Positions 3,579 to 36,999 of a stretch of 64,000 bases of DNA are shown here, piece after piece. The position numbers were made by a program, and so were the translations under genes. Every line of letters begins with the position of its first letter. Positions within the stretch are counted from its first letter, which is position 1. Under the pieces are notes generated by a model. The model was not told where the DNA came from, did no database searches, and saw nothing but the letters and a program-made list of their open reading frames with translations. The DNA is from Pseudomonadota bacterium (GTDB taxonomy: Bacteria > Pseudomonadota > Gammaproteobacteria > Burkholderiales > Burkholderiaceae_C), in NCBI GenBank assembly GCA_040388905.1, contig JAZKAY010000002.1:188054-252053 (forward strand), read 5' to 3'.

Positions 3579-4260
3579 ATTTTTCCCAGACATCTGAAGC
3601 GTTTCTAAGGGCATTGGAGTCGCCGCTCCAGACGACAACGCCGCGATCAATCACGTTGTGGCGGTCGCCGATTTGAAGTAAAGGTTCAAGGTATTTGTCT
3701 ATCAGCAATATGGCCATTCCTTCGGACTTGAGGCGTTTGAGGCAGGCCCAGATCTCCTGCCGTATCAGGGGTGCCAGACCTTCCGTTGCTTCATCAATGA
3801 TGAGCAGCTGGCCATTGCGCAGCAGCGCGCGGCCAATGGCCAGCATCTGCTGCTCGCCACCTGACAGCTGGTTGCCGAGATTGGCCTTGCGGCGTGCCAG
3901 CGAGGGGAACTGCTCGAACACTTTCTCAAGCGTCCATGCCCCGGGGCGCGCAAAGGCCTGCAGGTTCTCGGTGACCGAGAGGTTGGGGAAAATACGGCGC
4001 CCTTCAGGCACCAGCGAGATTCCGGCTGCAGCCACCTTTTCGGGCCGCATGCCGCGTATCGGTTGGCCGGCGAAAGTGATGTCACCGGACTGCGCGGGCG
4101 TTAGCCCCATGATGGAGCGCACCGTGGTGGTTTTGCCCATGCCGTTGCGGCCGACCAGTGTGACCACCTCGCCGGCATTGATGGTCAGGCTCATGCCAAA
4201 CAGCACCTTGCAGTCGCCATAGGCTGACTGCACATTCACGAGTTCAAGACACTTGTTCAC
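3565..4260 (-). CDS. ABC transporter ATP-binding protein (LivF-like)
   Basis: Walker A GRNGMGKTT, signature LSGGEQQML, Walker B LLIIDE. 4-nt overlap with the upstream gene. Confidence 0.92.
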   Translation of the reverse strand: MNKCLELVNVQSAYGDCKVLFGMSLTINAGEVVTLVGRNGMGKTTTVRSIMGLTPAQSGDITFAGQPIRGMRPEKVAAAGISLVPEGRRIFPNLSVTENLQAFARPGAWTLEKVFEQFPSLARRKANLGNQLSGGEQQMLAIGRALLRNGQLLIIDEATEGLAPLIRQEIWACLKRLKSEGMAILLIDKYLEPLLQIGDRHNVIDRGVVVWSGDSNALRNASDVWEKYVGV

Positions 4261-18417: not shown

Positions 18418-19935
18418 ATGAGTGCATCACCCACGGCCATTGGCCATTACATCAATGGCCGCGCAGTCGCCGGCACCTCCGCCCGTAGCCAGGATGTTTT
18501 TAACCCGGCCACCGGCGCTGTCACCGGTCAGGTAGCGCTGGCAGGCCTGAAAGATGTGGATGCCGCTGTTGCAGCCGCGCAGGCTGCGTTTCCCGCCTGG
18601 AGCGACCTGCCACCACTGCGCCGTGCGCGTGTGATGTTCAGGTTCCTCGAACTGCTTAATGCCAACAAGGACAAGCTGGCCCACATGATCACGGCCGAGC
18701 ACGGCAAGGTGTTCACCGATGCGCAGGGCGAGGTTGCCCGTGGCATCGACATCGTTGAATTTGCCTGCGGCATCCCGCAGTTGCTCAAGGGCGACTTCAC
18801 CGACCAGGTCTCCACCGGCATTGACAACTGGACAATCCGCCAGGCTTTGGGCGTGGTCGCTGGCATCACGCCATTCAATTTCCCGGTCATGGTGCCCATG
18901 TGGATGTTCCCGGTCGCCATTGCGGCGGGCAACACCTTTGTTCTCAAGCCCAGCCCGATTGACCCCAGCCCCAGCCTGTTCATGGGTGAGCTGCTCAAGC
19001 AGGCAGGTCTGCCCGACGGCGTTTACAACGTGGTGCAGGGCGACAAGGAGGCCGTTGATGCCCTGCTGGTGCACCCGGATGTGAAGGCCGTGTCCTTTGT
19101 CGGCTCCACGCCGATTGCCAACTACATCTACGAAACCGGTGCGCATCACGGCAAGCGTGTGCAGGCGCTGGGCGGTGCCAAGAACCACATGGTTGTCATG
19201 CCGGATGCCGACCTTGAGCAGGCTGTCGACGCACTGATAGGCGCAGGTTACGGCTCGGCCGGTGAACGCTGCATGGCGATTTCCGTGGCCGTGCTGGTGG
19301 GCGATGTGGGCGACAGGCTGATTCCCATGCTCGAGGCGCGCGCCAAAACGCTGGTGATCAAGAACGGCACCCATCTCGATGCCGAGATGGGTCCCATCGT
19401 CACGTCGATTGCGCACAAACGCATCACCGGCTACATCGACATCGGCGTGGCAGAAGGTGCAAAGCTGCTGGTGGACGGCCGAAAATTCACAGGCGCCGAC
19501 GCGGGTGAAGGCTGCGGTAATGGCTTCTGGATGGGCGGCACGCTGTTTGACCACGTCACGCCCGACATGCGCATTTACAAGGAAGAAATCTTCGGCCCGG
19601 TGCTGGGCTGCGTGCGTGTGAAGGACTTTGCAGAAGCCGTGAACCTCATCAACGCCCATGAATTTGGCAATGGCGTGAGCTGCTTCACGCGTGACGGCCA
19701 CATTGCGCGCGAGTTCTCGCGTCGTATCCAGGTCGGTATGGTTGGCATCAATGTGCCGATTCCCGTGCCCATGGCCTGGCACGGTTTTGGCGGCTGGAAG
19801 AAGAGCCTGTTTGGCGACATGCATGCCTATGGCGAAGAAGGCGTGCGCTTTTATACAAAGCAGAAGTCCATCATGCAGCGCTGGCCTGAAAGCATTGGCA
19901 AGGGGGCTGAGTTTGTGATGCCAACCGCGAAATAA
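18418..19935 (+). CDS. mmsA: CoA-acylating methylmalonate-semialdehyde dehydrogenase
   Basis: ORF 18304-19935, start moved to ATG 18418 ([15 protein letters not shown]...). ALDH motifs are present ([26 protein letters not shown]). The length and C-terminus are typical of MmsA. Confidence 0.9.
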
Positions 19936-20210
19936 GGCCCCCACGTTCGCTCACTGCGTGTAGCTCTCTGCCCCCCGAGGGGGCGCTGCTCCTGCGGCCC
20001 GGCTGGGCCGGTTCCGCGGACCCTGCTTGCCTTGGGAAGCACTATCGCTCGTGTCTGGTGCTCTAGGTGTGCATGACTATTTGCCTTAAAACTAAGGCAT
20101 ACCCCGCCAAAAGCGTTAAAAAAGTCATGTAAGCTTCGCGACAGCTGCAAATTGGCCGCATGCGCCCATGCTGCAGACCACTCAATAACTAATGCACAGA
20201 GGAGAGACCC

Positions 20211-25059: not shown

Positions 25060-25830
25060 ATGACTTCCACACCCTCCATCACCGCCATCCTGAGCGCCCT
25101 GCAAGAAGAGCAGCAAGGCCTGATAGACCTGCTGCACAAGCCCCAGAAGACAGTTCATGCCGGGCGTGATTTCTGGCACGGCGAGTTGCACGGCCAGCCG
25201 GTGGTGCTGGTGCTGTCGCGCATCGGCAAGGTGGCCGCTGCGACCACCGCGACCGCGCTGATCGAGCGCTTCAAGGTCAGCCGCATCGTGTTTACCGGCG
25301 TTGCCGGTGGCCTGGGCCACGGCGTGAAGGTCGGCGATGTGGTGGTGGCCGAGGATTTTGTGCAGCACGACATGGATTCGTCACCGCTGTTTCCGCGCTA
25401 CGAGATCCCGCTTTATGGCCAGACGCGCTTCAAGGCCGACCCCGCGTTGACGGGTTTGCTGCTGCAGGCGGCGAATTCGGCTTTCAAACACATCAACGAT
25501 GGTGAAACGCCCTGGGCCTTTCCGGATGCAAAGGTGCACCACGGCCTGATGGCCAGCGGCGACCGGTTTGTGTCCGGCGCGCAGGAGGCGCATGACCTGC
25601 AGCATGCACTGCAGGCGGCGGGCCACCCGGTGCTGGCGGTCGAGATGGAGGGCGCAGCCATCGCGCAGGTGGCGCTGGACTACGGCCTGCCGTTTGCAGC
25701 GGTGCGGACGATTTCTGACCGGGCCGACGACCAGGCGCATGTGGATTTCCCGGCTTTTGTGCGTGATGTGGCCAGCTACTACGCGCGTGCCGTGGTCGAG
25801 AAGTTTCTCGAGTTGCTACCAAAAAAATAG
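25060..25830 (+). CDS. mtnN: 5'-methylthioadenosine/S-adenosylhomocysteine nucleosidase
   Basis: VLSRIGKVAAATTATALIERF...FTGVAGGL...VEMEGAAIAQV...RTISDRAD. The start is uncertain (GTG 25027 or ATG 25060). Confidence 0.88.
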   Translation: MTSTPSITAILSALQEEQQGLIDLLHKPQKTVHAGRDFWHGELHGQPVVLVLSRIGKVAAATTATALIERFKVSRIVFTGVAGGLGHGVKVGDVVVAEDFVQHDMDSSPLFPRYEIPLYGQTRFKADPALTGLLLQAANSAFKHINDGETPWAFPDAKVHHGLMASGDRFVSGAQEAHDLQHALQAAGHPVLAVEMEGAAIAQVALDYGLPFAAVRTISDRADDQAHVDFPAFVRDVASYYARAVVEKFLELLPKK

Positions 25831-25906
25831 CTGGTCACGCACGTATTTATTGGCCTGCAGCCGTTTTCATGCCTGAAAATGGCACTTTTTGAGGCTTTTC
25901 AGGCCT
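25828..25906 (+). repeat. intergenic repeat family, copy A (core module)
   Basis: TAGCTGGTCACGCACGTATTTATTGGCCTGCAGCC...GCCTGAAAATGGCAC...TTTTCAGGCC aligns with copies at 28639 and 63059, all in the same orientation. Confidence 0.8.
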
Positions 25907-27211: not shown

Positions 27212-28438
27212 TCAGCTCGCCGGGTAGCCAAAAAACGCCAGCAGCTCGGCCTTGCGGGCATAGGCGTCTTGCTCGCCCAGCGCCATCAGGGCCTTGACGA
27301 AGCCGGGCTCGAACAGCAGGTAACTGGCGAGTGCCGCGCCGCCCGGGCTGCCGCGGCTGCCGAGCGCGCCCAGGCCTTCAAGTGCGTGGTAAGTGGCAGC
27401 AGGCAGTTCGCTCGCGTGGGCCTGGGCCAGCGCGTCAAGCGACTGTGACGGCGCCATGGCCAGGATGTCGACCGCCCGGTAGGGCATCACGGCGGCGATC
27501 TCGCGCGGCAGCTCGCGCATGGTCTTGCTCACGCGCGTGGCCTGCTCCACATCGGCCTGAAGTGTGTCCTGGAAGACGCTGGCCATGGCGTGGCCGGCAA
27601 TCGCACCCAGTGTGGGGCGTACACCGGTGGCCGCGGCCTCGGTGCCGCCGAAACCGGCGCGCTCGGGCTGGCCCACGCCTATCACCATGATCCTGCTGGC
27701 GCCCAGGTGCAGGGCCGGCGAGAGCGGCGAACTCTGGCGCATGGATCCGTCGCCAAAATACTCGCGCCGGCCATCAACCCACAGCGGTGTGGACGGGAAT
27801 ATAAACGGCAGGGCGCTCGACGCCATCAGGTGCTCGATGGTGACGGGCTGGAACTCTGCGCGCCGGCCGGGGCGGCTCCACATGCCGTCGGGTTTTCCGC
27901 TCTCGGTCTGGCAAAACGTCCAGTGCACACCGCTGGTGTAGCTTGAAGCGGTCACCGCCAGCGCCTTGAGGGTTTTGTCGTTCAGCGCCTGCTCGATGTT
28001 GGCCAGCGAAATGGCCTTGTGCAGCGTATCCACCAGAGGCGTGTTGTTCAGGAAAGCCTGCTGCGCGCGAACCTGCTGCGAGAGGAAAAGCGCGGCTGCG
28101 ATGCGGCTGGAGCGTATCCAGGCCGGCACTTTGAGGTGGTAGACCTGTGAAGACCGCAGGCTTGACCAGAAGTCCGCCAGGTGCGCAAAGGCGTTCAGGC
28201 CTTCACTGGCGCGGCTGGCGAGAAAAGTGGCATTGAGGGCCCCGGCCGAGGTGCCGACCAGAATCCTGAAGGGGAAGGGTGGCGCGACCTCGCTGCCTGC
28301 CAGGCCCAGCATGCTGGCCAGGGCATGCAGTACACCCGCCTGGTAAGCGGTGCGCGCCCCGCCGCCCATCAGTACCAGCGCCGGGCAATCTTCGCCGCGC
28401 CTGACAAGTGCGGACGAAATGATGGTTTCAAGCGACAT
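27212..28438 (-). CDS. patatin-like phospholipase family protein
   Basis: ORF 27212-28615, start moved to ATG 28438 (MSLETIISS...). Oxyanion GGGARTAYQAG, nucleophile elbow GTSAGA, and a later DG(S/A) dyad Asp region. Confidence 0.85.
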   Translation of the reverse strand: MSLETIISSALVRRGEDCPALVLMGGGARTAYQAGVLHALASMLGLAGSEVAPPFPFRILVGTSAGALNATFLASRASEGLNAFAHLADFWSSLRSSQVYHLKVPAWIRSSRIAAALFLSQQVRAQQAFLNNTPLVDTLHKAISLANIEQALNDKTLKALAVTASSYTSGVHWTFCQTESGKPDGMWSRPGRRAEFQPVTIEHLMASSALPFIFPSTPLWVDGRREYFGDGSMRQSSPLSPALHLGASRIMVIGVGQPERAGFGGTEAAATGVRPTLGAIAGHAMASVFQDTLQADVEQATRVSKTMRELPREIAAVMPYRAVDILAMAPSQSLDALAQAHASELPAATYHALEGLGALGSRGSPGGAALASYLLFEPGFVKALMALGEQDAYARKAELLAFFGYPAS

Positions 28439-28638
28439 GGGATTTGGTCTGGACTGTGTTGCGCAACTTGCAGCCCGGTCAGCGGACTGCCACCAGGCAA
28501 GGATAGCAGTGGCAGGCGGGAGGCAGGGCTCTTTGTGCGCCGTGTGAACAGGGTTGCATCCTGGCTGCTGCCCCGCTTGCAGAACGGTAATCTTGCCTGC
28601 CAATATGGTTTCCAAAAAAAACAGTTGCTATGTATTTA

Positions 28639-28826
28639 GTAGCTGCTTACGCACGTATCTATTGGCCTGGAGCCAGATTTGATGCCTGAAAACGCCTGTT
28701 TTAGAGCCGTCCCGAGGTTTTTTGGAGGCAAAATTGACCTCAAAACCTGAAAAGTTAAGTTCCATATTAACTTTCCACCAGAGTTTAATATTTACGTCAA
28801 TTTTTTAATGTGTACGTTAAAAAATG
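28639..28826 (+). repeat. intergenic repeat family, copy B (core plus AT-rich module)
   Basis: The core 28639-28707 aligns with copies A and C. The AT-rich module 28750-28826 is colinear with 63171-63246. Confidence 0.8.
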
Positions 28827-28855: not shown

Positions 28856-29293
28856 ATGAGTGATCCTGCCAACCTGATCATCCACGCCATCAGGCTGAGC
28901 CCGGGTGAAGACCTTCGCCTTGCCGTGGAAGCGGCCTGCAACCAGCTGATGGCCGGCAAAGATTGCCAGGCGGCCTGCGTCATCTCTTCCGTCGGCAGCC
29001 TCTCATGCGCGGTTCTGCGGTATGCCGCCGAGCCTGAGGGCAGCCGGATCGAAGGCCCGCTGGAGATGATCACGCTGTCGGGCACCCTGGCGGCGCCGGG
29101 TGGCGGCGGTGTTCACCTGCACGCCAGCGTGGCCGATGCACAGGGCCGCGTGACGGGCGGCCACCTCATGCCGGGCTGCATCGTGCGCACCACGGCCGAG
29201 GTCGTGCTGGCCCTGTTGCCGGGCTGGTCGTTTGTACGCACGCTGGACCCGGCAACCGGTTTCCGCGAGCTTGCTGCCAGCCGCCGCGCCTGA
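28856..29293 (+). CDS. PPC (DUF296) domain-containing DNA-binding-type protein
   Basis: 145 aa. IIHAIRLSPGEDL...ISSVGSL...ITLSGTL....GGVHLHASVADAQGRVTGGHL is the usual PPC/DUF296 pattern. Confidence 0.75.
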   Translation: MSDPANLIIHAIRLSPGEDLRLAVEAACNQLMAGKDCQAACVISSVGSLSCAVLRYAAEPEGSRIEGPLEMITLSGTLAAPGGGGVHLHASVADAQGRVTGGHLMPGCIVRTTAEVVLALLPGWSFVRTLDPATGFRELAASRRA

Positions 29294-29802: not shown

Positions 29803-29892
29803 TAACTGCACAATCGAAGCGCGCGCTTGTGGTTTCAGATGTCCCGATGGACACAAGCCCTCACGCGTGAAGCACAGGAAAAGGAGAGAGCC

Positions 29893-30210
29893 ATGCGGCG
29901 CTGGTCTGGTTATTTGTTGATGGCGTTTACCGTTTCCATGCTTGGCGGCTTGACACCCACTGACGCGGACGCACAAAGATGTTTCCCCTGTTTCCGCCTG
30001 CCCAACCCCAAGGACCGCAACCCGGATCGCAGGGAGGACAGGCCCAACACCCTGGAAGCGCCGGATGGCAGGGATTCATATACCCGCCCGACGGAGCTGC
30101 CAGGCGTCAACAATGACTCGCGTGATTTTGTGCCCAGGCAGGAGATCATCAAGGGCGTGCCAGGTGACACTGTCCCTGATGAGGTCTTGCCTACGCCACC
30201 CAATTCCTGA
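29893..30210 (+). CDS. hypothetical small exported protein
   Basis: AAGGAGAG lies 4-5 nt before ATG 29893. MRRWSGYLLMAFTVSMLGGLTPTDADA is a signal-like N-terminus, followed by a charged Pro/Arg/Asp-rich tail. Confidence 0.5.
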   Translation: MRRWSGYLLMAFTVSMLGGLTPTDADAQRCFPCFRLPNPKDRNPDRREDRPNTLEAPDGRDSYTRPTELPGVNNDSRDFVPRQEIIKGVPGDTVPDEVLPTPPNS

Positions 30211-30238: not shown

Positions 30239-31843
30239 TTAAGCCTGGGCTTTCAGGTGAGCAAGATCAGCAAGCCATGCCGACCAGGCCTCGTCTTTCG
30301 CGTCGGGCGGCAGACGCAGCAGCGCGGAAGGGTGCAGGGTCACCAGCACCTTCAGGCCGTCCTCACGCTCAAAAATCTGGCCGCGTGATGCCATGACGGG
30401 GACAGGCCGGCCAAGCAGCGAGCGCGCGGCTGTGGCACCGAGTGCCACCAACAGTTGCGGCTTGACGATGCGGATTTCATCGTCAAGCCAGTGCTGGCAG
30501 GCCGCCGCTTCACGTTGTGTCGGTGTTTTGTGGATGCGGCGTTTGCCGCGCAACTCATACTTGAAATGCTTGACTGCGTTGGAGACAAATACCCCATCGC
30601 GGGCTATGCCAAGCTCTGCCAGTGCGCGGTCCAGCAGCTGGCCGGCAGGGCCGACAAAGGGTTTGCCGCGTACATCCTCATGATCCCCCGGTTGTTCACC
30701 CACAAACATGAGGCGCGCACCGACCGGGCCTTCACCAGCAACTGACTGGGTTGCGCATTCACCTATGGGGCACTCGCGGCAATGTTCGGTGGCCTGACGC
30801 ACGGCAGACAAAGACTTCATGGCCTTGCCATCTGCGGCATGGGTGAACGCGGAAACCGGTGCATGTGTCACATCGGCTATCGGAATGACGGGAATGCGCC
30901 GCAGCGGCACGCTACCGGGCTGCTCGATCATGCGTATGCTGCTCTCGTGCGCACCGGCTACCAGCGTGTGGATCATCTCTGCCTCGGGCAGGTTCTTCCA
31001 GTACTTGCGCGGCATTTCCTTTTGCATCATCTTCACCTTCAGGCGTGCCGGGTTGAAGATGTTGCGGTAGTAGGTGAGCCACAGCTGCTCGCCTGCATCG
31101 GGCATCGGTGCGTCTTCCTTGCGGGCGCCGGGACCGAAGCGCAGGCCGGCCATCACGGCATCTTGTCCCGCACCCTTTGACAGGGGCTCGTCAAGGCCCG
31201 CGTTCAGCCATTCCACGCTGCGTTCAGGTGTGAGGATGGCCCAGCGCATCTGCGCAAAACGGCGTGCAAAAAACGGAGCCACGGCTTCGACGATATGGTG
31301 TTCAGGTTCAAACCAGGCCACGTGCAGCGGCCCGCCTTCGGGGTGGGTGTTGAAGGTTTCATCCTGCACGCTGCGAAAACGCACAAAGGCCTTCATCTTG
31401 TGCATGTCGCGCCGTACGGCATGCGCCATTTGCTGGGCGCGCATCATGTCGGCATCGAGCGGGTCATGGCGCAGGCCGGGCTCATGGGCCAGCCGCCACA
31501 AAATGCGGTAAAGCAGGCCGAAGCGCGCAGGGTCACTGTGCAGGATGGCGGCCTGGCACAGGGTTAAAAACTCGGGCGGCACACTGATGGCGGGGGCAGC
31601 GGCGAACTCCTGTGGGCTGAGGTAGTGAAAGGTGTCCTGCTCGCCTGAAGCCTGCGCGCCGAAAAGATCCGGGGTGGCTTCATCACCACTGCTCCAGACA
31701 ATCTGTTCGGGCAGCATCTGGCGCGCCAGTAATGCGCGTGAAGCACGGCGAAAGCCGTCCAGGTCCGTTGCGCCCTGAAGGGTCACGGGCAACAAGGCCT
31801 GTGGAAACAGGTCGGTCGTCAGCGGGTCATTCATCACGCCCAT
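30239..31843 (-). CDS. DUF4130 domain fused to a UdgX-type family-4-like uracil-DNA glycosylase domain
   Basis: The N-terminus carries DUF4130 motifs (HKMKAFVRF, VAWFEPEHHIVEAVAPFFARRF). The C-terminus carries GEQPG (30686-30700), FVGPAG, the KRRIH loop (30530-30544) and HPSALLR. 10-nt overlap with the upstream rSAM gene. Confidence 0.88.
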   Translation of the reverse strand: MGVMNDPLTTDLFPQALLPVTLQGATDLDGFRRASRALLARQMLPEQIVWSSGDEATPDLFGAQASGEQDTFHYLSPQEFAAAPAISVPPEFLTLCQAAILHSDPARFGLLYRILWRLAHEPGLRHDPLDADMMRAQQMAHAVRRDMHKMKAFVRFRSVQDETFNTHPEGGPLHVAWFEPEHHIVEAVAPFFARRFAQMRWAILTPERSVEWLNAGLDEPLSKGAGQDAVMAGLRFGPGARKEDAPMPDAGEQLWLTYYRNIFNPARLKVKMMQKEMPRKYWKNLPEAEMIHTLVAGAHESSIRMIEQPGSVPLRRIPVIPIADVTHAPVSAFTHAADGKAMKSLSAVRQATEHCRECPIGECATQSVAGEGPVGARLMFVGEQPGDHEDVRGKPFVGPAGQLLDRALAELGIARDGVFVSNAVKHFKYELRGKRRIHKTPTQREAAACQHWLDDEIRIVKPQLLVALGATAARSLLGRPVPVMASRGQIFEREDGLKVLVTLHPSALLRLPPDAKDEAWSAWLADLAHLKAQA

Positions 31844-33318
31844 GGCAAACTCCTTTCTTCACTTACTGGTGCGGATAGTGCGCCCGGCCCCGGCGCCGCC
31901 CATGTAGGCAAAGGGGCCGTCATGCCTGTTGCCACAGTCGTGATCTGCGGGGGAATATACGGAAGCTGCGGCGGCGTAGCAGCTGGCACAGGTGCCCCCT
32001 GTACGGGGGCAGGTTCATCAAAAAGCCCGGGCTGGACGGGGTCACGCAACTGCTCACCCAGGGCCATGCCATCCAGCAGGCCGCCCGGGTGGTGATCAGG
32101 CAGCAGCACAAAAGGCATGACCTTTTTAAGTGGCAGATGAAGGCACAGCAGGTCAGCTGCACGCAGGTGGCGCACCCGGCGGCTCTGCAAGATGCGCTCG
32201 ACTGCCTTCACGCCCATGCCGGGCACCCGAAGCAGCATTTCGCGCGGTGCGTGGTTAAGGTCGACGGGAAAGCGGCCACGATTGGCCAGCGCCCAGGCCA
32301 GCTTGGGGTCATGCAGCAGCGACAGCATGTCGCCGGTGTCTGCAGCGCCGGACGCGGGCGTTGCCGGCACGATCTCATCGTGGCTGAAGCCATAAAAGCG
32401 GATCAGCCAGTCAGCCTGGTACAGGCGATGTTCACGCAGCAGGGGTGCCTGCAGCAGGGGCAGGCGCATCGACGCGTCAGGTATGGGGCTGAACGCCGAG
32501 TAGTAAACGCGCCGCATGCGGAAGGTGCCGTAAAGCGATGCAGAGGTCTGAAGGATGACGCGGTCGCTGGAGTCATCGGCACCCACAATCATCTGGGTGC
32601 TCTGGCCTGCCGGTGCGAAGCGTGGCGCGGCACTGCGTTTGGCCATTCGCGATTTGGGCAAGGAGATGACACTGGTGCGTGCGCCGTCGATGGCCTCGCC
32701 TTTTGCATCGTCGATATGCACCCTGAGCCTGGCCATGGAGCGGCGGATGGCCGGTGCGTTTTTCTCGGGGGCCAGCGCATGAAGTGCGTCTTGCGTGGGC
32801 AACTCGATGTTGATGCTCAGGCGGTCGGCATAACGGCCGGCAGCGGCCAGGAGTTCGGGCGACGCATCGGGAATGGTCTTGAGGTGGATGTAGCCGCGAA
32901 AGTCGTGGTCTTCGCGCAGCCTGCGCGCCACCTCAACCACCTGCTCCATGGTGTAGTCGGGGTTCTGGATGATGCCGCTTGAAAGAAACAACCCCTCTAT
33001 GCAATTGCGGCGGTAGAAGTCGAGCGTCAGTGCAACGACTTCATCGACAGAAAAGCGTGCGCGCGGCACATTGCTGCTGACCCGGTTCACGCAATACAGG
33101 CAGTCATAGGTACAGAAATTGGTAAGCAGGATTTTCAGCAGCGATATGCAGCGCCCGTCAGGTGCATAGCTGTGGCAGATACCCGAACCCTCGGTAGAAC
33201 CAATGCCCTTGCCGCCCACAGAGTTGCGTCTGGAACTGCCGCTTGATGCGCAGGAGGCATCGTATTTGGCGGCGTCAGCCAGAATCGCGAGCTTGCGGTG
33301 GGTAGTTTGTGTGGACAC
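31834..33318 (-). CDS. putative DNA modification/repair radical SAM protein with a C-terminal helix-hairpin-helix
   Basis: CTYDCLYC (CX3CX2C, 33091-33114), N-terminal KLAILADAAKYDASCASSG, and HhH LLRVPGMGVKAVERIL. The only in-frame start near the conserved N-terminus is GTG 33318. Confidence 0.88.
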   Translation of the reverse strand: MSTQTTHRKLAILADAAKYDASCASSGSSRRNSVGGKGIGSTEGSGICHSYAPDGRCISLLKILLTNFCTYDCLYCVNRVSSNVPRARFSVDEVVALTLDFYRRNCIEGLFLSSGIIQNPDYTMEQVVEVARRLREDHDFRGYIHLKTIPDASPELLAAAGRYADRLSINIELPTQDALHALAPEKNAPAIRRSMARLRVHIDDAKGEAIDGARTSVISLPKSRMAKRSAAPRFAPAGQSTQMIVGADDSSDRVILQTSASLYGTFRMRRVYYSAFSPIPDASMRLPLLQAPLLREHRLYQADWLIRFYGFSHDEIVPATPASGAADTGDMLSLLHDPKLAWALANRGRFPVDLNHAPREMLLRVPGMGVKAVERILQSRRVRHLRAADLLCLHLPLKKVMPFVLLPDHHPGGLLDGMALGEQLRDPVQPGLFDEPAPVQGAPVPAATPPQLPYIPPQITTVATGMTAPLPTWAAPGPGALSAPVSEERSLPWA

Positions 33319-33333
33319 TGTATTAATATACAG
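33318..33333. promoter_or_regulatory. LexA (SOS) box 1, CTGTATTAATATACAG
   Basis: Perfect CTGT-N8-ACAG with an AT-only spacer; it overlaps the GTG start of the rSAM gene. Confidence 0.8.
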
Positions 33334-33348
33334 CTTTTTGTCAATTAA

Positions 33349-33364
33349 CTGTATTTATTTACAG
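33349..33364. promoter_or_regulatory. LexA (SOS) box 2, CTGTATTTATTTACAG
   Basis: Perfect CTGT-N8-ACAG with an AT-only spacer, 15 nt from box 1. Confidence 0.8.
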
Positions 33365-33413: not shown

Positions 33414-34421
33414 TCAGGCGCGAACCTTGTGGCGGTTACGGCCCTTGCTGCCTTTGGCCTCCATCAACAGATAGCCCAGCACGGCCACTGCCAGGGGTGC
33501 GATGTAATAAATCACCCGGTAGGCCACCAGCGCAGCCAGAAGTTCGGCCTGGGGCATCTGGTGGGACAGCAAGGCGACAAAAACGGCTTCAAGCACGCCG
33601 AGGCCTGCAGGGATATGCGTGATCACGCCAGCAATCGCAGCCAGCAGAAGCACACCGACCACCATGGAAAATTCAATGCGGTGCTGCAGCAGGATAAAAA
33701 CAATGCCAGACATGGTGAGCCAGTTGGCTGCGCCCATCATCAGCTGAAGGCCGGCAAGCCTGGCTGACGGCAACTCGATGACGTGGCCGCGCACATTGAA
33801 CTGGCGGTGGCCCAGCAGCACGCAGGCGCCCACGTAAGCCACAGCCACACAGACAAGCACCGCACCGCCAAGTCGCAGCAAGGCGGGTTGAATGCCCCAA
33901 CTGGCCGGCAAGGTCGGCGGGACAAGGCTGAACACCAGACCCGCCAGGAACACGTAGCCCATCCAGTTGGTCAGCATGCTGATGGACATGATGCGCGTGA
34001 TGACCCCGGGTTTGAGACCCAGCCTCGAATAAAGCCGGTAACGCATTGCGACGCCGCCCACCAGTGAGCCCAGGTTGAGGTTGAACACATAGCTCACAAA
34101 GGTGGTGGCCATCACGGTGCGCGTTCCGAGCCCGTGACCGGTGTAGTGCCGACCCAGGAGGTCAAAGCTGCTGTAGAGCGTGAAACTGGTGATGGCCAGC
34201 AACACGGCGCCCCAGGCTGCCGACAGCGGATAGTCTTCAAGCGCGGTGAGCACTTCTGCCCATTCGATGCTCCGTGCCTGGGATGCCAGCAACGCCAGGA
34301 CCAGAATCATGAACGCCAGGCCTGCGGCCCGTTTCAGCCACGGCCACCAGGAGCGTCGTGCTGCGGCCGTTGAGGGCTGCTCAGGCGTGTTGGCGGGCAC
34401 GGCGTCCACAGGCTGCGTCAC
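33414..34421 (-). CDS. ybhN: UPF0104/YbhN-like (lysylphosphatidylglycerol-synthase TM-region family) membrane protein
   Basis: 335-aa polytopic protein. ATGA overlap with clsB. Same gene order as the E. coli ybhP-clsB-ybhN operon. Confidence 0.8.
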   Translation of the reverse strand: MTQPVDAVPANTPEQPSTAAARRSWWPWLKRAAGLAFMILVLALLASQARSIEWAEVLTALEDYPLSAAWGAVLLAITSFTLYSSFDLLGRHYTGHGLGTRTVMATTFVSYVFNLNLGSLVGGVAMRYRLYSRLGLKPGVITRIMSISMLTNWMGYVFLAGLVFSLVPPTLPASWGIQPALLRLGGAVLVCVAVAYVGACVLLGHRQFNVRGHVIELPSARLAGLQLMMGAANWLTMSGIVFILLQHRIEFSMVVGVLLLAAIAGVITHIPAGLGVLEAVFVALLSHQMPQAELLAALVAYRVIYYIAPLAVAVLGYLLMEAKGSKGRNRHKVRA

Positions 34422-35725
34422 ACCGGGTCGGCATTGGCCACATTGTCTGCGCCAGCACGTTTTAACCGGGTGGCCTCATCGTCGTGGTCGCTGCGCGTCA
34501 TGGCTGGAATGATGTGTGGGGCATGTGCAGGCAGCCAGCTGGCCCATGACGGGTAACGTCGCAACAGGTGAAAAACAAAAAAGCTCCTGAGCGAAAACCA
34601 CCAGCGCGAGGTTTCGAGTTCATCGGCCCTGATCTGCTTGCAGCTGTTCTGCATGAGATGGTCCAGCCGCCCGGTGAGATGCTCGTTGAAAGCCTTGTCC
34701 CGGATGATGACGTTGGCTTCCAGGTTCAATGAGAGGCTCAGGGGATCGAGGTTGCTGGAACCCACGGTCGCCCATTCGCCATCTGACACTGCCACCTTGC
34801 CATGCAGGGGCCGCTCGCAGTATTCGTAGATGCGCACACCGGCCTTGATCAGGTGGTGGTAGAGCATGCTGGCCGCCGTCTTGACGATGGGCATGTCCGG
34901 CTCGCCCTGCAATATGAGGCGCACATCCACACCGCGGCGCGCTGCCTTGCGCATTTCCTTGATAAGCCTGTAACCCGGGAAGAAGTAGGCGTTGGCAATG
35001 ATGACCCGCTCCCGCGCCGCACGTATGGCGATGCGGTAGTGGCGCTCGATGTCATTGGTGTGCTTGCGGTTGTCGCGCGTCACAAAAATTGCACCGGCAT
35101 CGCCGGCGCTGCCATTTGCGGCAGACGAAGCCAGCCGGTCCTCAGGCTTGCGTTGTGAACGGCCGGGAAAGCGGTCACGCCATGGAACAGCCGCACTGGC
35201 CCCCTGCGCATTGCGCTGGCCCGCCGCAAGCGCACGGTGCACAAAATCATGAATGGTGGAGACGATGGGGCCTTCAATCTCGACTGAATAATCCTGCTTG
35301 GCCTGCGGGCCGAAGTCGGCAAGATGATCTGCCGAGTAATTGATGCCGCCCACAAAAGCGTGCTTGCCGTCAACTACCACGATCTTGCGGTGCATTCGGC
35401 GCAGGACATTGGTGCGCCAGCCAAGCACCGGCGTGCTGGGGTCGAAAACATGAACCCGTACGCCGGCCTGCGTCAGGGTGGAGATGAATTCATGAGAAAG
35501 ATCGGGTGAGCCGAAACCATCAATCGTCACGTCGACCTGGACTCCTCTGGTCGCGGCTTTCAGCAGGGCGCCGTGAAGCTCCTTGCCCACCTTGTCTTCA
35601 AACAGGATGAAGGTTTCAAGGACAACCTCGCGCTCGGCAGCGGCTATGCATTCAAAAACACGTGGAAAAAATTCCTCGCCGTTCTCAAGCAGCTTGAACC
35701 TGTTGCCTTCAACCCATTTACTCAC
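34418..35725 (-). CDS. clsB: cardiolipin synthase ClsB (phospholipase D family, two HKD motifs)
   Basis: HRKIVVVDG...GGIN and HGKVAVSDG...GSSN. AGGAGA lies 5 nt before GTG 35725; the longer ATG 35797 start would overlap ybhP by 52 nt. Confidence 0.88.
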   Translation of the reverse strand: MSKWVEGNRFKLLENGEEFFPRVFECIAAAEREVVLETFILFEDKVGKELHGALLKAATRGVQVDVTIDGFGSPDLSHEFISTLTQAGVRVHVFDPSTPVLGWRTNVLRRMHRKIVVVDGKHAFVGGINYSADHLADFGPQAKQDYSVEIEGPIVSTIHDFVHRALAAGQRNAQGASAAVPWRDRFPGRSQRKPEDRLASSAANGSAGDAGAIFVTRDNRKHTNDIERHYRIAIRAARERVIIANAYFFPGYRLIKEMRKAARRGVDVRLILQGEPDMPIVKTAASMLYHHLIKAGVRIYEYCERPLHGKVAVSDGEWATVGSSNLDPLSLSLNLEANVIIRDKAFNEHLTGRLDHLMQNSCKQIRADELETSRWWFSLRSFFVFHLLRRYPSWASWLPAHAPHIIPAMTRSDHDDEATRLKRAGADNVANADPV

Positions 35726-35745
35726 GGTGTTCTCCTGATACAGGG

Positions 35746-36609
35746 CTAAATTTCTATTTCCGCCGCAAGCGGCGCATGGTCGGACAGATGTGACCACGGC
35801 TTGTTGGGCAGAACCACAGGCGCATGGCCAATGGCGTTACGCACGTAAATCCGGTCCAGCCGCAGCAACGGGAGCCGCGCGGGAAAGGTTCTTGCCGGAT
35901 GGCCGTTGGCCTGTACAAACACCTCGTGCAGGCCGGCACCCTCGGCCAGCTGCTTGCCTGCGCGGTGCCGCCAGTCATTGAAGTCACCTGCCACGATGAG
36001 GGGCGCAGCTGCGGGGACGGTGTCCTCCACCAGCTTGCAGAGTTTTTGCATCTGCTGCATGCGGTGGGCTTCAGTCAGGCTCAGGTGCACGCAAATCGCA
36101 TGGACGTTGAGGGAGCGACCCGGGATCTGCAGCTCACAGTGCAGCAGGCCGCGGCGCTCGGGTCCGCTGATGGACACATCGTGGTTCTCAAAACGCACGA
36201 TGGGGAATTTGGACATGATGGCGTTGCCGTGGTCGCCATGCGTGTAGACCGCATTGCGCCCGTAGGCAAATTGAGGCCAGATGCTGTCCGCCAGGAATTC
36301 GTAATGCGGTGTATCCGGGTAGTTGTCAAACCTGTCCTGATGGGTGGTGTGGCTGCCCGTTACTTCCTGCAGGAACACCACATCTGCGCCCACGGTACGC
36401 ACAGCCTCCCTCAACTCGGGCAGGATGAACTTGCGGTTGAAGAATGTAAAGCCCTTGTGGATGTTGACGGTCAGTACCTTGAGCGAAAAAGTCATGGCTG
36501 CCGTGGCCAGCGCTTCCTGCGTCTGGGCGACGACATCCGCATCCGTCCCGGATGACAGGTCGACAGGTGTTTGTTCAGTGACAGAAATGACAGAAGCGGG
36601 AGTGGACAT
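35746..36609 (-). CDS. ybhP: endonuclease/exonuclease/phosphatase (EEP) family protein, YbhP-like
   Basis: ORF 35746-36648, start moved to ATG 36609. EEP motifs are present (VLTVNIHKG, ADVVFLQEV, GDFNDW, SDHAPL). Confidence 0.85.
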   Translation of the reverse strand: MSTPASVISVTEQTPVDLSSGTDADVVAQTQEALATAAMTFSLKVLTVNIHKGFTFFNRKFILPELREAVRTVGADVVFLQEVTGSHTTHQDRFDNYPDTPHYEFLADSIWPQFAYGRNAVYTHGDHGNAIMSKFPIVRFENHDVSISGPERRGLLHCELQIPGRSLNVHAICVHLSLTEAHRMQQMQKLCKLVEDTVPAAAPLIVAGDFNDWRHRAGKQLAEGAGLHEVFVQANGHPARTFPARLPLLRLDRIYVRNAIGHAPVVLPNKPWSHLSDHAPLAAEIEI

Positions 36610-36999
36610 ATGAATTACGAAACTGCACATGCAGTGAAGCGCAGGCAATGATGGAAACCATCATTAAAACAAACCGTTGCCGAGATTGTTGTGCAAGCGC
36701 CCCGGCCTTCATGTAGGACCGCAAGCTAATTGTGTGTATGAAGGCGTTTGCCACCGGGGTTGCCAGTGTGATCCGGTTTTGTACACCTGCCTGAAACGGG
36801 TTTTGCATGAGTGTCGGGCGTACTGTCCTACGCGCGGGAGCGGGTAGCGCCGATAAGCCGCCACACGACTTGCCGCCTAAATTGAAATCAACCAAACCAG
36901 TTGGTCTGGCTTCTGATGAAGTGCCTTGTTCAGGCGCGGTTCAGATTGTTGGTACTGGAATGACCTGTCAGGTCTTCCGGGTTTCTAAAGGAGTCAAAA

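What the first reader, a model, noticed from the sequence alone, without database searches (positions are those of the whole stretch)
33318..33364. Two perfect LexA (SOS) boxes on the 5' end of the radical-SAM/UdgX-like operon
CTGTATTAATATACAG (33318-33333) and CTGTATTTATTTACAG (33349-33364) both fit the beta/gammaproteobacterial LexA consensus CTGT-N8-ACAG, and both have pure A/T spacers. They lie 15 nt apart in the 95-nt gap upstream of the minus-strand rSAM gene. The proximal box overlaps the only plausible start codon, GTG 33318. I did not notice another such pair anywhere else in the window. This predicts tight, DNA-damage-inducible control of the cassette 30239-33318, which would make it part of the SOS regulon rather than housekeeping base-excision repair.
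Basis: partly seen in the sequence, partly recalled or inferred. Interest (0 to 1): 0.72.

Follow-up and report, generated by a model that had tools for sequence, protein, structure and literature searches.

The report
LexA boxes on rSAM–UdgX repair operon
Two genuine, evolutionarily conserved binding sites for the DNA-damage repressor LexA sit on the start of a two-gene radical-SAM/UdgX DNA-repair operon in this Polaromonas genome, so the operon is almost certainly SOS-inducible; this link is already known from other bacterial phyla, so it is a solid but fairly ordinary result.

Summary
CTGTATTAATATACAG (33318-33333) and CTGTATTTATTTACAG (33349-33364) are the only two CTGT-N8-ACAG sites in the 64-kb window.

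- **Strength of the sites.** On a matrix built from 116 published betaproteobacterial LexA sites they score 29.6 and 28.1 bits. The training median is 28.9, and the next best site in the window scores 2.5.
- **Genes downstream.** They precede a minus-strand operon: a TIGR03916 radical-SAM gene (31834-33318) and a DUF4130/TIGR03915 + UdgX fusion (30239-31843) that carries GEQPG, KRRIH and HPS.
- **Conservation.** Including the window, 77 of 80 orthologous loci from Burkholderiales species keep a box at the 5' end of the rSAM gene, although the flanking non-coding DNA is unconserved. The distal box occurs only in one Polaromonas subclade, 31-33 bp from the proximal one.
- **Prior knowledge.** LexA control of this cassette has already been reported or predicted in Alphaproteobacteria, Verrucomicrobia, Bacteroidetes and Clostridium. 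This is a new member of a known kind.
- **What is new.** In 64 of 77 loci the last G of the box is the first base of an in-frame GTG, usually the only plausible start. There is no Shine-Dalgarno, and the box-internal TATATT lies exactly at -12..-7 from that G. This suggests, but does not prove, a leaderless GUG mRNA made from a fused operator/-10/start-codon module.

The parts
33318..33333 (.). Proximal LexA operator. It reads CTGTATATTAATACAG on the minus (gene) strand, and its last G (33318) is the first base of the GTG start codon.
   Evidence: Exact CTGT-N8-ACAG. PSSM score 29.6 bits. An orthologous box is present in 77 of 80 loci, counting the window.
33349..33364 (.). Distal LexA operator. 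It reads CTGTAAATAAATACAG on the minus strand, 31 bp centre-to-centre from the proximal box, and covers the position where a -35 element would lie (33353-33348).
   Evidence: Exact match. PSSM score 28.1 bits. It is present only in the window and 15 Polaromonas-clade loci, at 31-33 bp spacing, while the DNA between the boxes is not conserved.
33325..33330 (-). TATATT inside the proximal box. It is the putative -10 hexamer, lying at -12..-7 relative to G33318 (inference).
   Evidence: The geometry is read directly from the sequence. In 77 loci, box positions 4 (A, 75/77) and 8 (T, 72/77) keep the TAnnnT pattern, whereas position 9 is free.
33316..33318 (-). GTG start codon of the rSAM gene. There is no Shine-Dalgarno upstream; it is the putative +1 of a leaderless mRNA.
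   Evidence: It is the only in-frame start before the conserved KLAILADAAKYD motif. In 64 of 64 loci with a box-abutting GTG, that GTG is in frame and the frame is open. No SD-like motif lies upstream.
31834..33318 (-). [quoted passage not shown]
   Evidence: TIGR03916: 531 bits against a cutoff of 343.5. Pfam Radical_SAM. The CxxxCxxC motif (CTYDCLYC) is in the translation.
30239..31843 (-). Fusion gene (534 aa): DUF4130/TIGR03915 at the N-terminus and a UdgX-family uracil-DNA-binding domain (TIGR03914) at the C-terminus. It overlaps the rSAM stop codon by 10 nt.
   Evidence: TIGR03915 212 bits and TIGR03914 277 bits. DUF4130 and UDG by Pfam. GEQPG, KRRIH and HPS motifs are in the translation.
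31850..31855 (-). AAGGAG Shine-Dalgarno, 6 nt upstream of the gene-2 ATG at 31843. It shows that this genome uses an SD where it needs one.
33339..33344 (-). TTGACA between the two boxes. It is a consensus -35 match but is judged non-functional.
   Evidence: It pairs with TACAGT at a 16-nt spacing. However, it is not conserved even in the closest relatives. It would also start the mRNA downstream of the only start codon.

Best explanation
The two palindromes are operators for the host LexA repressor. They place the two-gene operon (TIGR03916 radical-SAM enzyme, then a DUF4130 + UdgX-type uracil-DNA crosslinking glycosylase) in the SOS regulon.

**Proposed mechanism.** In undamaged cells one LexA dimer sits on the proximal box, which covers the start codon and the base immediately upstream. 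In this Polaromonas lineage a second dimer sits on the distal box, three helical turns away (31 bp) on the same face of the DNA, over the position of a -35 element. Together they would block RNA polymerase. RecA-stimulated LexA self-cleavage after DNA damage would free the promoter.

**Shown here.**
- The motif quality of both boxes.
- Their position relative to the gene.
- The conservation of the proximal box across Burkholiales orthologues (Burkholderiales).
- The identity of the genes.
- The 10-nt overlap between the two genes, and an SD before gene 2.

**Inferred.**
- LexA binding and induction by DNA damage.
- Cooperativity between the two boxes.
- That the box-internal TATATT is the -10 element.
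- That transcription starts at the G of the GTG, giving a leaderless GUG mRNA. I put this sub-claim at about 0.45.
For: - **Motif.** Both sites are exact CTGT-N8-ACAG with A/T-only spacers.
- **Score.** They reach 29.6 and 28.1 bits on a PSSM from 116 published betaproteobacterial LexA sites. The next best site in the window is 2.5 bits; V. paradoxus lexA scores 17.8 and 21.9, and recA 11.1.
- **Conservation.** 77 of 80 orthologous loci, counting the window, keep a box within 220 nt of the conserved N-terminus, while positions -45..-6 carry about 0-0.2 bits of information.
- **Specificity.** 77 of 83 perfect boxes in 662 kb of loci are at this gene.
- **Distal box.** It is kept in 16 loci although the inter-box DNA is scrambled.
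- **Host motif.** The literature gives CTGT-N8-ACAG as the LexA motif of most Beta- and Gammaproteobacteria.
- **Precedent.** The same COG1573-COG4277 operon is reported or predicted as SOS-regulated in Alphaproteobacteria, Verrucomicrobia and Bacteroidetes and in C. acetobutylicum.
- **Leaderless sub-claim.** In 64 of 77 loci the box's last G begins an in-frame, open GTG, across 10 different N-terminal lengths. TATATT lies at -12..-7 from that G. There is no SD. No motif is conserved upstream of the box. Other genes (DUF72, DUF2471 and a small-protein family) also start exactly at a box-abutting GTG in metagenomes.
Against: - There are no binding, TSS or expression data for this organism.
- The host lexA gene was not seen, so its motif specificity rests on published comparative genomics of relatives.
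- No convincing -35 element is conserved.
- The best consensus promoter in the gap, TTGACA-16-TACAGT, is incompatible with the GTG start, although it is not conserved either.
- Leaderless GUG mRNAs are translated poorly in E. coli (my own knowledge) and have not been documented in Comamonadaceae.
- 13 loci have the box 2-70 nt upstream of the start codon, so a leader is tolerated.
- A -10-like TAnnnT is intrinsic to many LexA boxes. In the published set, box position 8 is T in 13 of 116 sites and its mirror position 7 is A in 65 of 116, and TATATT occurs on either strand in 25 of 116. The asymmetry argument is therefore weak.
- The 80 loci are related species, not independent samples.
Confidence: 0.85

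Rival explanations
1. The boxes are LexA operators, but the promoter lies upstream of or across the boxes, and the mRNA has a short A/U-rich leader that contains box 1. LexA would act by occlusion or as a roadblock. Translation of the GTG would be SD-independent rather than leaderless.
For: - Thirteen orthologous loci have 2-70 nt between the box and the start codon, with no SD either, so a leadered, SD-less mRNA works for this gene.
- An A-rich tract precedes the box in most loci.
- -10-like sequences are intrinsic to LexA boxes generally.
Against: - No conserved -10 or -35 element exists upstream of the box.
- The exact, invariant ACAG|TG junction in 64 loci is hard to explain if the 5' end of the mRNA lies elsewhere.
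- In a read-through or leadered RNA, the GUG is buried in the box-1 hairpin.
Confidence: 0.4
2. The real promoter is the consensus-like TTGACA (33344-33339) / TACAGT (33322-33317) pair. The true start codon would then lie downstream of GTG 33318.
For: It gives the best sigma-70 consensus match in the gap, 10 of 12 positions.
Against: - TTGACA is not conserved even in the closest relatives: TTGGCA, CTGGCA, AGTCAA and others.
- A TSS about 7 nt after TACAGT would remove the only start codon upstream of the conserved KLAILADAAKYD motif.
- The TIGR03916 profile begins about 5 residues before that motif.
Confidence: 0.03
3. The palindromes are not LexA sites. They would instead be chance A/T-rich palindromes, a terminator for the upstream clsB/mprF-like operon, or operators of a different regulator such as a LexA paralogue.
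For: - The loose pattern occurs about once per 64 kb by chance.
- The palindromes fold as hairpins in RNA.
- The host LexA was not examined.
Against: - The PSSM scores are 26 bits above the next site in the window.
- The box is conserved in 77 of 80 loci whatever gene lies upstream.
- There is no T-run after either hairpin, and the scan calls no terminator in the gap.
- The same cassette carries the lineage-appropriate LexA motif in other phyla.
Confidence: 0.05

Closest known systems
SOS-regulated COG1573-COG4277 (UDG + radical-SAM) operon described by the Erill/Barbé group (Verrucomicrobia 2016; Bacteroidetes NAR 2021, PMC8565304) and in Caulobacter crescentus (da Rocha 2008); also C. acetobutylicum CAC3343-3344 (PMC3828012)
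   Same: The gene families are the same (TIGR03916 rSAM with DUF4130 and a family-4-like UDG). The logic is also the same: a LexA operator of the lineage's own motif sits directly upstream of the operon.
   Different: - This instance is in Betaproteobacteria (Polaromonas, Comamonadaceae), with the E. coli-type CTGT-N8-ACAG motif.
- Gene order is rSAM first, with DUF4130 fused to the UDG domain.
- The UDG domain is a true UdgX type (KRRIH).
- There are two operators instead of one.
- The operator abuts the start codon.
- For Comamonadaceae I found only a passing, data-not-shown mention of boxes at 'radical SAM proteins' in Acidovorax citrulli (PMC6595937).
Multi-operator SOS promoters of E. coli (lexA with two boxes, recN with three, colicin genes with two overlapping boxes) - from my own knowledge
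   Same: Two high-affinity LexA boxes sit on one promoter. This arrangement is expected to give tighter repression and later induction.
   Different: The centre-to-centre spacing here is 31-33 bp (about three helical turns) rather than adjacent or overlapping boxes. Cooperativity has not been tested.
Leaderless SOS genes of Actinobacteria, e.g. M. tuberculosis lexA, whose translational start coincides with the TSS (PMC2897130)
   Same: An SOS gene whose start codon would be the 5' end of the mRNA, with the operator close to +1.
   Different: The TSS here is not mapped. The start is GTG, forced by the ACAG half-site. The host is a betaproteobacterium, where leaderless GUG mRNAs are not documented.
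M. smegmatis UdgX (PMC4787834, PMC10359453)
   Same: The C-terminal domain carries motif A (GEQPG), the R-loop (KRRIH) and motif B (HPSALLR). These define the uracil-excising, AP-site-crosslinking UdgX class, whose DNA adduct needs RecA-dependent repair.
   Different: Here the domain is fused to DUF4130, translationally coupled to a radical-SAM enzyme, and placed behind LexA boxes. The UdgX papers I read do not discuss this context. No biochemistry has been done on this protein.

Membership tests
LexA operator, Beta/Gammaproteobacterial type (CTGT-N8-ACAG) | A 16-bp palindrome CTGT-N8-ACAG with an A/T-rich spacer, scoring like known sites. | tested here: met
   Both boxes match exactly. They score 29.6 and 28.1 bits against a training median of 28.9 and a window background maximum of 2.5.
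LexA operator, Beta/Gammaproteobacterial type (CTGT-N8-ACAG) | [quoted passage not shown] | tested here: inconclusive
   The boxes start at -15 and -46 relative to the start codon, inside a 95-nt intergenic gap. The promoter and TSS are not mapped. The only consensus promoter hit is not conserved.
LexA operator, Beta/Gammaproteobacterial type (CTGT-N8-ACAG) | Conserved upstream of orthologous genes (phylogenetic footprint). | tested here: met
   The proximal box is present in 77 of 80 loci from different Burkholderiales species, counting the window, and the flanks are unconserved. The distal box is present in only 16 loci of one Polaromonas subclade.
LexA operator, Beta/Gammaproteobacterial type (CTGT-N8-ACAG) | The host LexA recognises this motif, i.e. 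the same motif occurs at the host's own lexA/recA promoters. | not testable with these tools
Indirect support comes from V. paradoxus (same family), whose lexA, recA and imuA sites are of this type, and from a paper on Acidovorax citrulli that states most Betaproteobacteria use this motif, citing Sanchez-Alberola 2015.
LexA operator, Beta/Gammaproteobacterial type (CTGT-N8-ACAG) | LexA binding in vitro, and RecA/LexA-dependent induction by DNA damage. | not testable with these tools
   This needs EMSA or footprinting, and RNA-seq or qRT-PCR with and without mitomycin C.
rSAM-DUF4130-UDG cassette (TIGR03916 / TIGR03915 / TIGR03914) | A radical-SAM protein above the TIGR03916 cutoff, with the CxxxCxxC cluster motif. 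| tested here: met
   531 bits against a cutoff of 343.5. CTYDCLYC is in the translation.
rSAM-DUF4130-UDG cassette (TIGR03916 / TIGR03915 / TIGR03914) | An adjacent TIGR03915/DUF4130 domain and a TIGR03914 UDG-family domain. | tested here: met
   212 and 277 bits, both above their cutoffs, in one 534-aa protein that overlaps the rSAM stop codon.
UdgX class of the UDG superfamily | Motif A GEQPG, R-loop KRRIH with the crosslinking His, and motif B HPS(S/A)(L/V)(L/V)R. | tested here: met
   VGEQPGD, GKRRIHKTP and LHPSALLR are in the translation. The motif definitions come from PMC10359453 (abstract).
UdgX class of the UDG superfamily | Uracil excision with covalent crosslinking to the AP site. 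| not testable with these tools
   This needs biochemistry.
Leaderless mRNA | The transcription start coincides with the first base of the start codon. | not testable with these tools
   This needs 5'-RACE or dRNA-seq.
Leaderless mRNA | A -10-like TAnnnT hexamer about 6-7 nt upstream of the start codon, and no Shine-Dalgarno. | tested here: met
   TATATT lies at -12..-7 from G33318 and is retained as TAnnnT in more than 90% of 77 loci. There is no SD upstream, whereas gene 2 has AAGGAG.
Leaderless mRNA | A 5'-terminal AUG, the usual requirement in E. coli (my own knowledge). | tested here: not met
   The start is GTG in all 64 abutting loci. The G is dictated by the ACAG half-site.

The most novel reading that the evidence does not exclude
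The 18-bp sequence CTGTATATTnnTACAGTG may be a self-contained SOS expression module. In it, the LexA operator, the -10 hexamer (TATATT), the transcription start (the last G of ACAG) and a GTG start codon are fused, producing a leaderless GUG mRNA only when LexA leaves. The module travels with the rSAM-UdgX operon through at least 64 Burkholderiales species, whatever the neighbouring genes are. It also appears in front of other genes in metagenomes: DUF72, DUF2471 and an unannotated family of 110-130-aa proteins. That would make it a recurrent design for SOS genes in high-GC Betaproteobacteria. It would also make the crosslinking glycosylase UdgX a strictly damage-induced protein.
Probability: 0.4. 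Interest if true: 0.55.

Novelty: new member of a known kind. Interest (0 to 1): 0.38.

Why it matters
- **A lead on the cassette's role.** The result places a still-uncharacterised DNA-repair or DNA-modification cassette in the DNA-damage regulon of a whole order of Betaproteobacteria. The cassette combines a radical-SAM enzyme, DUF4130 and a UdgX-type suicide uracil glycosylase. The biochemical literature on UdgX has no physiological role for the enzyme, and the papers I read do not mention this context. LexA control, recurring independently with different LexA motifs in at least five phyla, says the cassette acts during or after DNA damage. One published suggestion is that it acts on lesions or misincorporated bases left by SOS polymerases (PMC8565304).
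- **A defined experiment.** Induce with mitomycin C, delete the operon, and look for survival or mutation-spectrum phenotypes.
- **A possible compact promoter design.** The fused operator/start-codon architecture, if leaderless, would be a compact regulatory design of interest for promoter engineering and for understanding SD-independent translation in proteobacteria.

Tried and rejected
1. **TTGACA/TACAGT promoter.** Rejected because it is not conserved in relatives and would remove the only start codon.
2. **Equating this gene with the 'splB' reported as SOS-regulated in Betaproteobacteria (PMC3323433).** Rejected because the V. paradoxus splB site (CTGTGTAAACATACAG at -42) differs from the box at the Variovorax orthologues of this gene. 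The later paper also lists SplB (COG1533) and COG4277 separately.
3. **A third operon gene downstream of 30239.** Rejected because the conserved reading frame there is a convergent plus-strand ORF, 29827-30210.
4. **A terminator role for the palindromes.** No T-run follows them, and the scan finds no terminator in the gap.
5. **pACM6 umuD as a second example of the ACAG|TG design.** It is not one. The annotated ATG lies inside that box, CTGTATTTATGAACAG.
6. **Papers not held in the library.** Sanchez-Alberola 2015, Erill 2016 and da Rocha 2008 could not be read. Their content is cited only through PMC8565304 and PMC6595937.
8. **Asymmetry of the box as proof of a -10 element.** Downgraded after seeing that published LexA sites often contain TAnnnT on one strand.
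Full report
**1. The observation**

- The window carries CTGTATTAATATACAG at 33318-33333 and CTGTATTTATTTACAG at 33349-33364. These are the only CTGT-N8-ACAG matches in the 64 kb.
- They are 15 nt apart, inside the 95-nt gap between the stop codon of a minus-strand MprF-like membrane-protein gene (33414-34421) and a minus-strand ORF at 31834-33318.
- On the gene strand the region reads ...TGATAA CTGTAAATAAATACAG TTAATTGACAAAAAG CTGTATATTAATACAG TG TCC ACA.... The last G of the proximal box is therefore the first base of the GTG start codon.
- The bare pattern is expected about once per window, so it is not significant on its own. I applied stricter tests.

**2. Significance**

- I built a position-specific scoring matrix from 116 distinct betaproteobacterial LexA sites. 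They were published for lexA, recA, imuA, dinB, uvrA, ssb, splB and other genes of Burkholderia, Ralstonia, Cupriavidus and Variovorax (supplement 4 of PMC3323433).
- The two boxes score 29.6 and 28.1 bits. The training median is 28.9.
- For comparison, the Variovorax paradoxus (Comamonadaceae) sites score 17.8 and 21.9 for lexA, 11.1 for recA, and 28.8 and 33.8 for imuA.
- The third-best site anywhere in the window scores 2.5 bits. The boxes are as good as typical bona fide SOS operators, and nothing else in the window comes close.

**3. The genes**

[quoted passage not shown] It has a CTYDCLYC cluster motif.
- The second ORF (30239-31843, 534 aa) overlaps the first ORF's stop codon by 10 nt and is preceded by an AAGGAG Shine-Dalgarno.
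- It is a fusion of TIGR03915/DUF4130 with a TIGR03914 UdgX-family domain. It carries the three UdgX signatures GEQPG, KRRIH and HPSALLR (motif definitions from PMC10359453).
- The operon ends at 30239. The conserved frame downstream is a convergent plus-strand ORF at 29827-30210.

**4. Comparative test**

- A scan of one genome per species recovered 437 relatives of the rSAM protein. The best 80 were kept, nearly all Comamonadaceae or other Burkholderiales by record title. The closest is a Polaromonas MAG at 99% protein identity, so the window is from a Polaromonas.
- I anchored each locus on the conserved KYDxSC motif. Counting the window, 77 of 80 loci have a CTGT-N8-ACAG with at most 1 mismatch and an A/T-rich spacer just upstream.
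- Of the three exceptions, two show a decayed box and one is cut by the contig end.
- The non-coding DNA further upstream carries essentially no information (0-0.2 bits per position at -45..-6). The box positions carry 1.2-2.4 bits.
- In 662 kb of these loci there are 83 perfect boxes. Of these, 77 lie at the 5' end of this gene. The other 6 have spacers with 0-5 A/T of 8, at a density that fits chance.
- Within Polaromonas the upstream genes (an endonuclease/exonuclease/phosphatase-family gene, clsB, and an mprF-like gene) are syntenic. In other genera they differ, yet the box stays with the gene.
- The distal box is found only in the window and 15 loci of one Polaromonas-type subclade. It always lies 31-33 bp centre-to-centre from the proximal box, while the DNA between the boxes is scrambled.
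- So the proximal operator is ancestral and general. The second operator is a lineage-specific addition under selection.

**5. Start codon and a possible leaderless design**

- In 64 of the 77 loci the last G of the box begins a GTG. In all 64 that GTG is in frame with the conserved N-terminus and the frame is open to it.
- This holds even though the distance from the GTG to the anchor takes 10 different values: 42 nt in 26 loci, 51 nt in 25 loci, and 57-102 nt in the rest.
- In most of these loci it is the only start codon available. The TIGR03916 profile starts about five residues before KLAIL.
- The GTG at 33318 is therefore the real start.
- No SD precedes it, although gene 2 has one.
- The box-internal TATATT (33330-33325) sits exactly at -12..-7 from that G. 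Its critical A (75/77) and final T (72/77) are retained, while the neighbouring position 9 is free.
- No -35 element or other motif is conserved upstream.
- The best consensus promoter in the gap is TTGACA-16-TACAGT. It is not conserved even in the nearest relatives and would start the mRNA after the only start codon, so I reject it.
- My inference is that the proximal box doubles as the -10 element and that transcription starts at the G of the GTG, giving a leaderless GUG mRNA. The distal box covers the -35 position (33353-33348).
- Caveats are substantial:
  - TAnnnT is common inside LexA boxes in general.
  - Thirteen loci tolerate 2-70 nt between the box and the start codon.
  - GUG leaderless mRNAs are inefficient in E. 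coli (my own knowledge).
  - There are no TSS data.
- I put this sub-claim at about 0.45.
- If the region is instead transcribed from upstream, both palindromes form hairpins and the GUG is buried in the box-1 stem. That would disfavour translation of read-through RNA.

**6. The same junction elsewhere**

Nine are rSAM orthologues starting at the GTG.
- Long ORFs also start exactly at the box-abutting GTG for several other genes:
  - Two different DUF72 genes, whose N-termini begin just before the start of the DUF72 profile.
  - A DUF2471 gene.
  - Four ORFs of 85-131 aa without family matches. Three have similar N-termini and all four look alike by eye; I did not align them.
- The design may therefore be a recurrent SOS module. 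I did not pursue this further.

**7. What is known**

- CTGT-N8-ACAG is the accepted LexA motif of most Beta- and Gammaproteobacteria.
- SOS regulation of the COG1573-COG4277 'UDG base-excision' operon has been reported for Verrucomicrobia and Alphaproteobacteria and predicted for Bacteroidetes (PMC8565304).
- The C. acetobutylicum operon CAC3343-3344 is also putatively LexA-controlled. Its first gene has the same product name and its second is of unknown function (PMC3828012).
- An Acidovorax citrulli genome paper mentions, with data not shown, boxes in front of 'radical SAM proteins' (PMC6595937).
- The 'splB' reported as SOS-regulated in Betaproteobacteria is a different gene.
- The function of the cassette is still unknown. 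DUF4130 was predicted in 2013 to be a mutagenesis-related partner of SplB-like rSAM enzymes and UDGs (PMC3765255). In 2026 it was predicted to form a complex with the rSAM protein and to contribute to nucleic-acid binding (bioRxiv 10.64898/2026.08.19.745780).
- The original UdgX paper shows that the UdgX-DNA adduct needs RecA-dependent repair. The two UdgX papers I searched do not discuss LexA control of the gene or a radical-SAM partner.

**8. Verdict**

LexA binding and damage induction remain to be shown.
- The finding is a new member of a known kind, namely a further lineage in which this cassette is under LexA.
- It has two modestly novel features: the lineage-specific second operator, and the conserved fusion of operator and GTG start codon, which suggests a leaderless SOS transcript.
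- Interest is moderate to low for the regulatory link itself. It is somewhat higher for the architecture and for the handle it gives on the physiological role of UdgX.

Noticed in passing
L087 3632-4549 (+), L116 446-1348 (+), L150 2-337 (-), L113 8081-8467 (+), L119 751-1158 (-), L123 1091-1435 (-), L130 3-272 (-): In metagenome contigs, other genes also start exactly at a GTG whose G is the last base of a CTGTATATTnnTACAG LexA box. They are two DUF72 genes, one DUF2471 gene, and four ORFs of 85-131 aa with no Pfam or NCBIfam match that look related by eye (not aligned). This suggests a recurrent operator/start-codon module and possibly unannotated SOS genes.
   Followed up: partly
window 33414-36648 (minus strand): Directly upstream and co-directional with the SOS operon lies a phospholipid-remodelling cluster. 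It comprises an endonuclease/exonuclease/phosphatase-family gene (35746-36648), clsB (34418-35797) and an MprF-like flippase-domain protein without the synthase domain (33414-34421). It is syntenic in Polaromonas. No terminator was detected between it and the LexA boxes, so read-through into the rSAM gene is possible.
   Followed up: partly
window 29827-30210 (+): A small convergent ORF (127 aa) with an apparent N-terminal signal-like hydrophobic stretch and no family match. It is conserved in 6 Polaromonas-type loci at 48-97% identity. The 30239-29300 stretch is variable between relatives and is absent in L006.
   Followed up: partly
window 25828-25893, 28640-28692, 63060-63095 (also about 19933-20029, seen via L014): A short (about 35-70 bp) dispersed repeat at 84-92% identity, also present in the flanks of related Polaromonas loci (L001, L004). 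It could be a REP/MITE-like intergenic element.
   Followed up: partly
L081 553-568 (pACM6, NZ_CP029374 47052-47067): The umuD gene of the Paracidovorax citrulli plasmid has its annotated ATG inside a LexA box (CTGTATTTATGAACAG). This is another Comamonadaceae SOS gene whose operator overlaps the start codon, but with a different junction.
   Followed up: partly
window 27212-28615 (-), 28856-29293 (+): A patatin-like phospholipase (weak similarity to the CBASS lipase, far below cutoff) and a PCC/DUF296-domain protein lie downstream of the operon. There is no evident link to the finding.
   Followed up: no
L009 about 60-80 and L027 about 3900-3995: Two Polaromonas loci have a decayed proximal box (CCCCTTATATTATTACAGTG and GCCGTATGTTCATTCGGTG) while keeping the GTG start. 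These may be natural cases of loss of LexA control of the operon.
   Followed up: no
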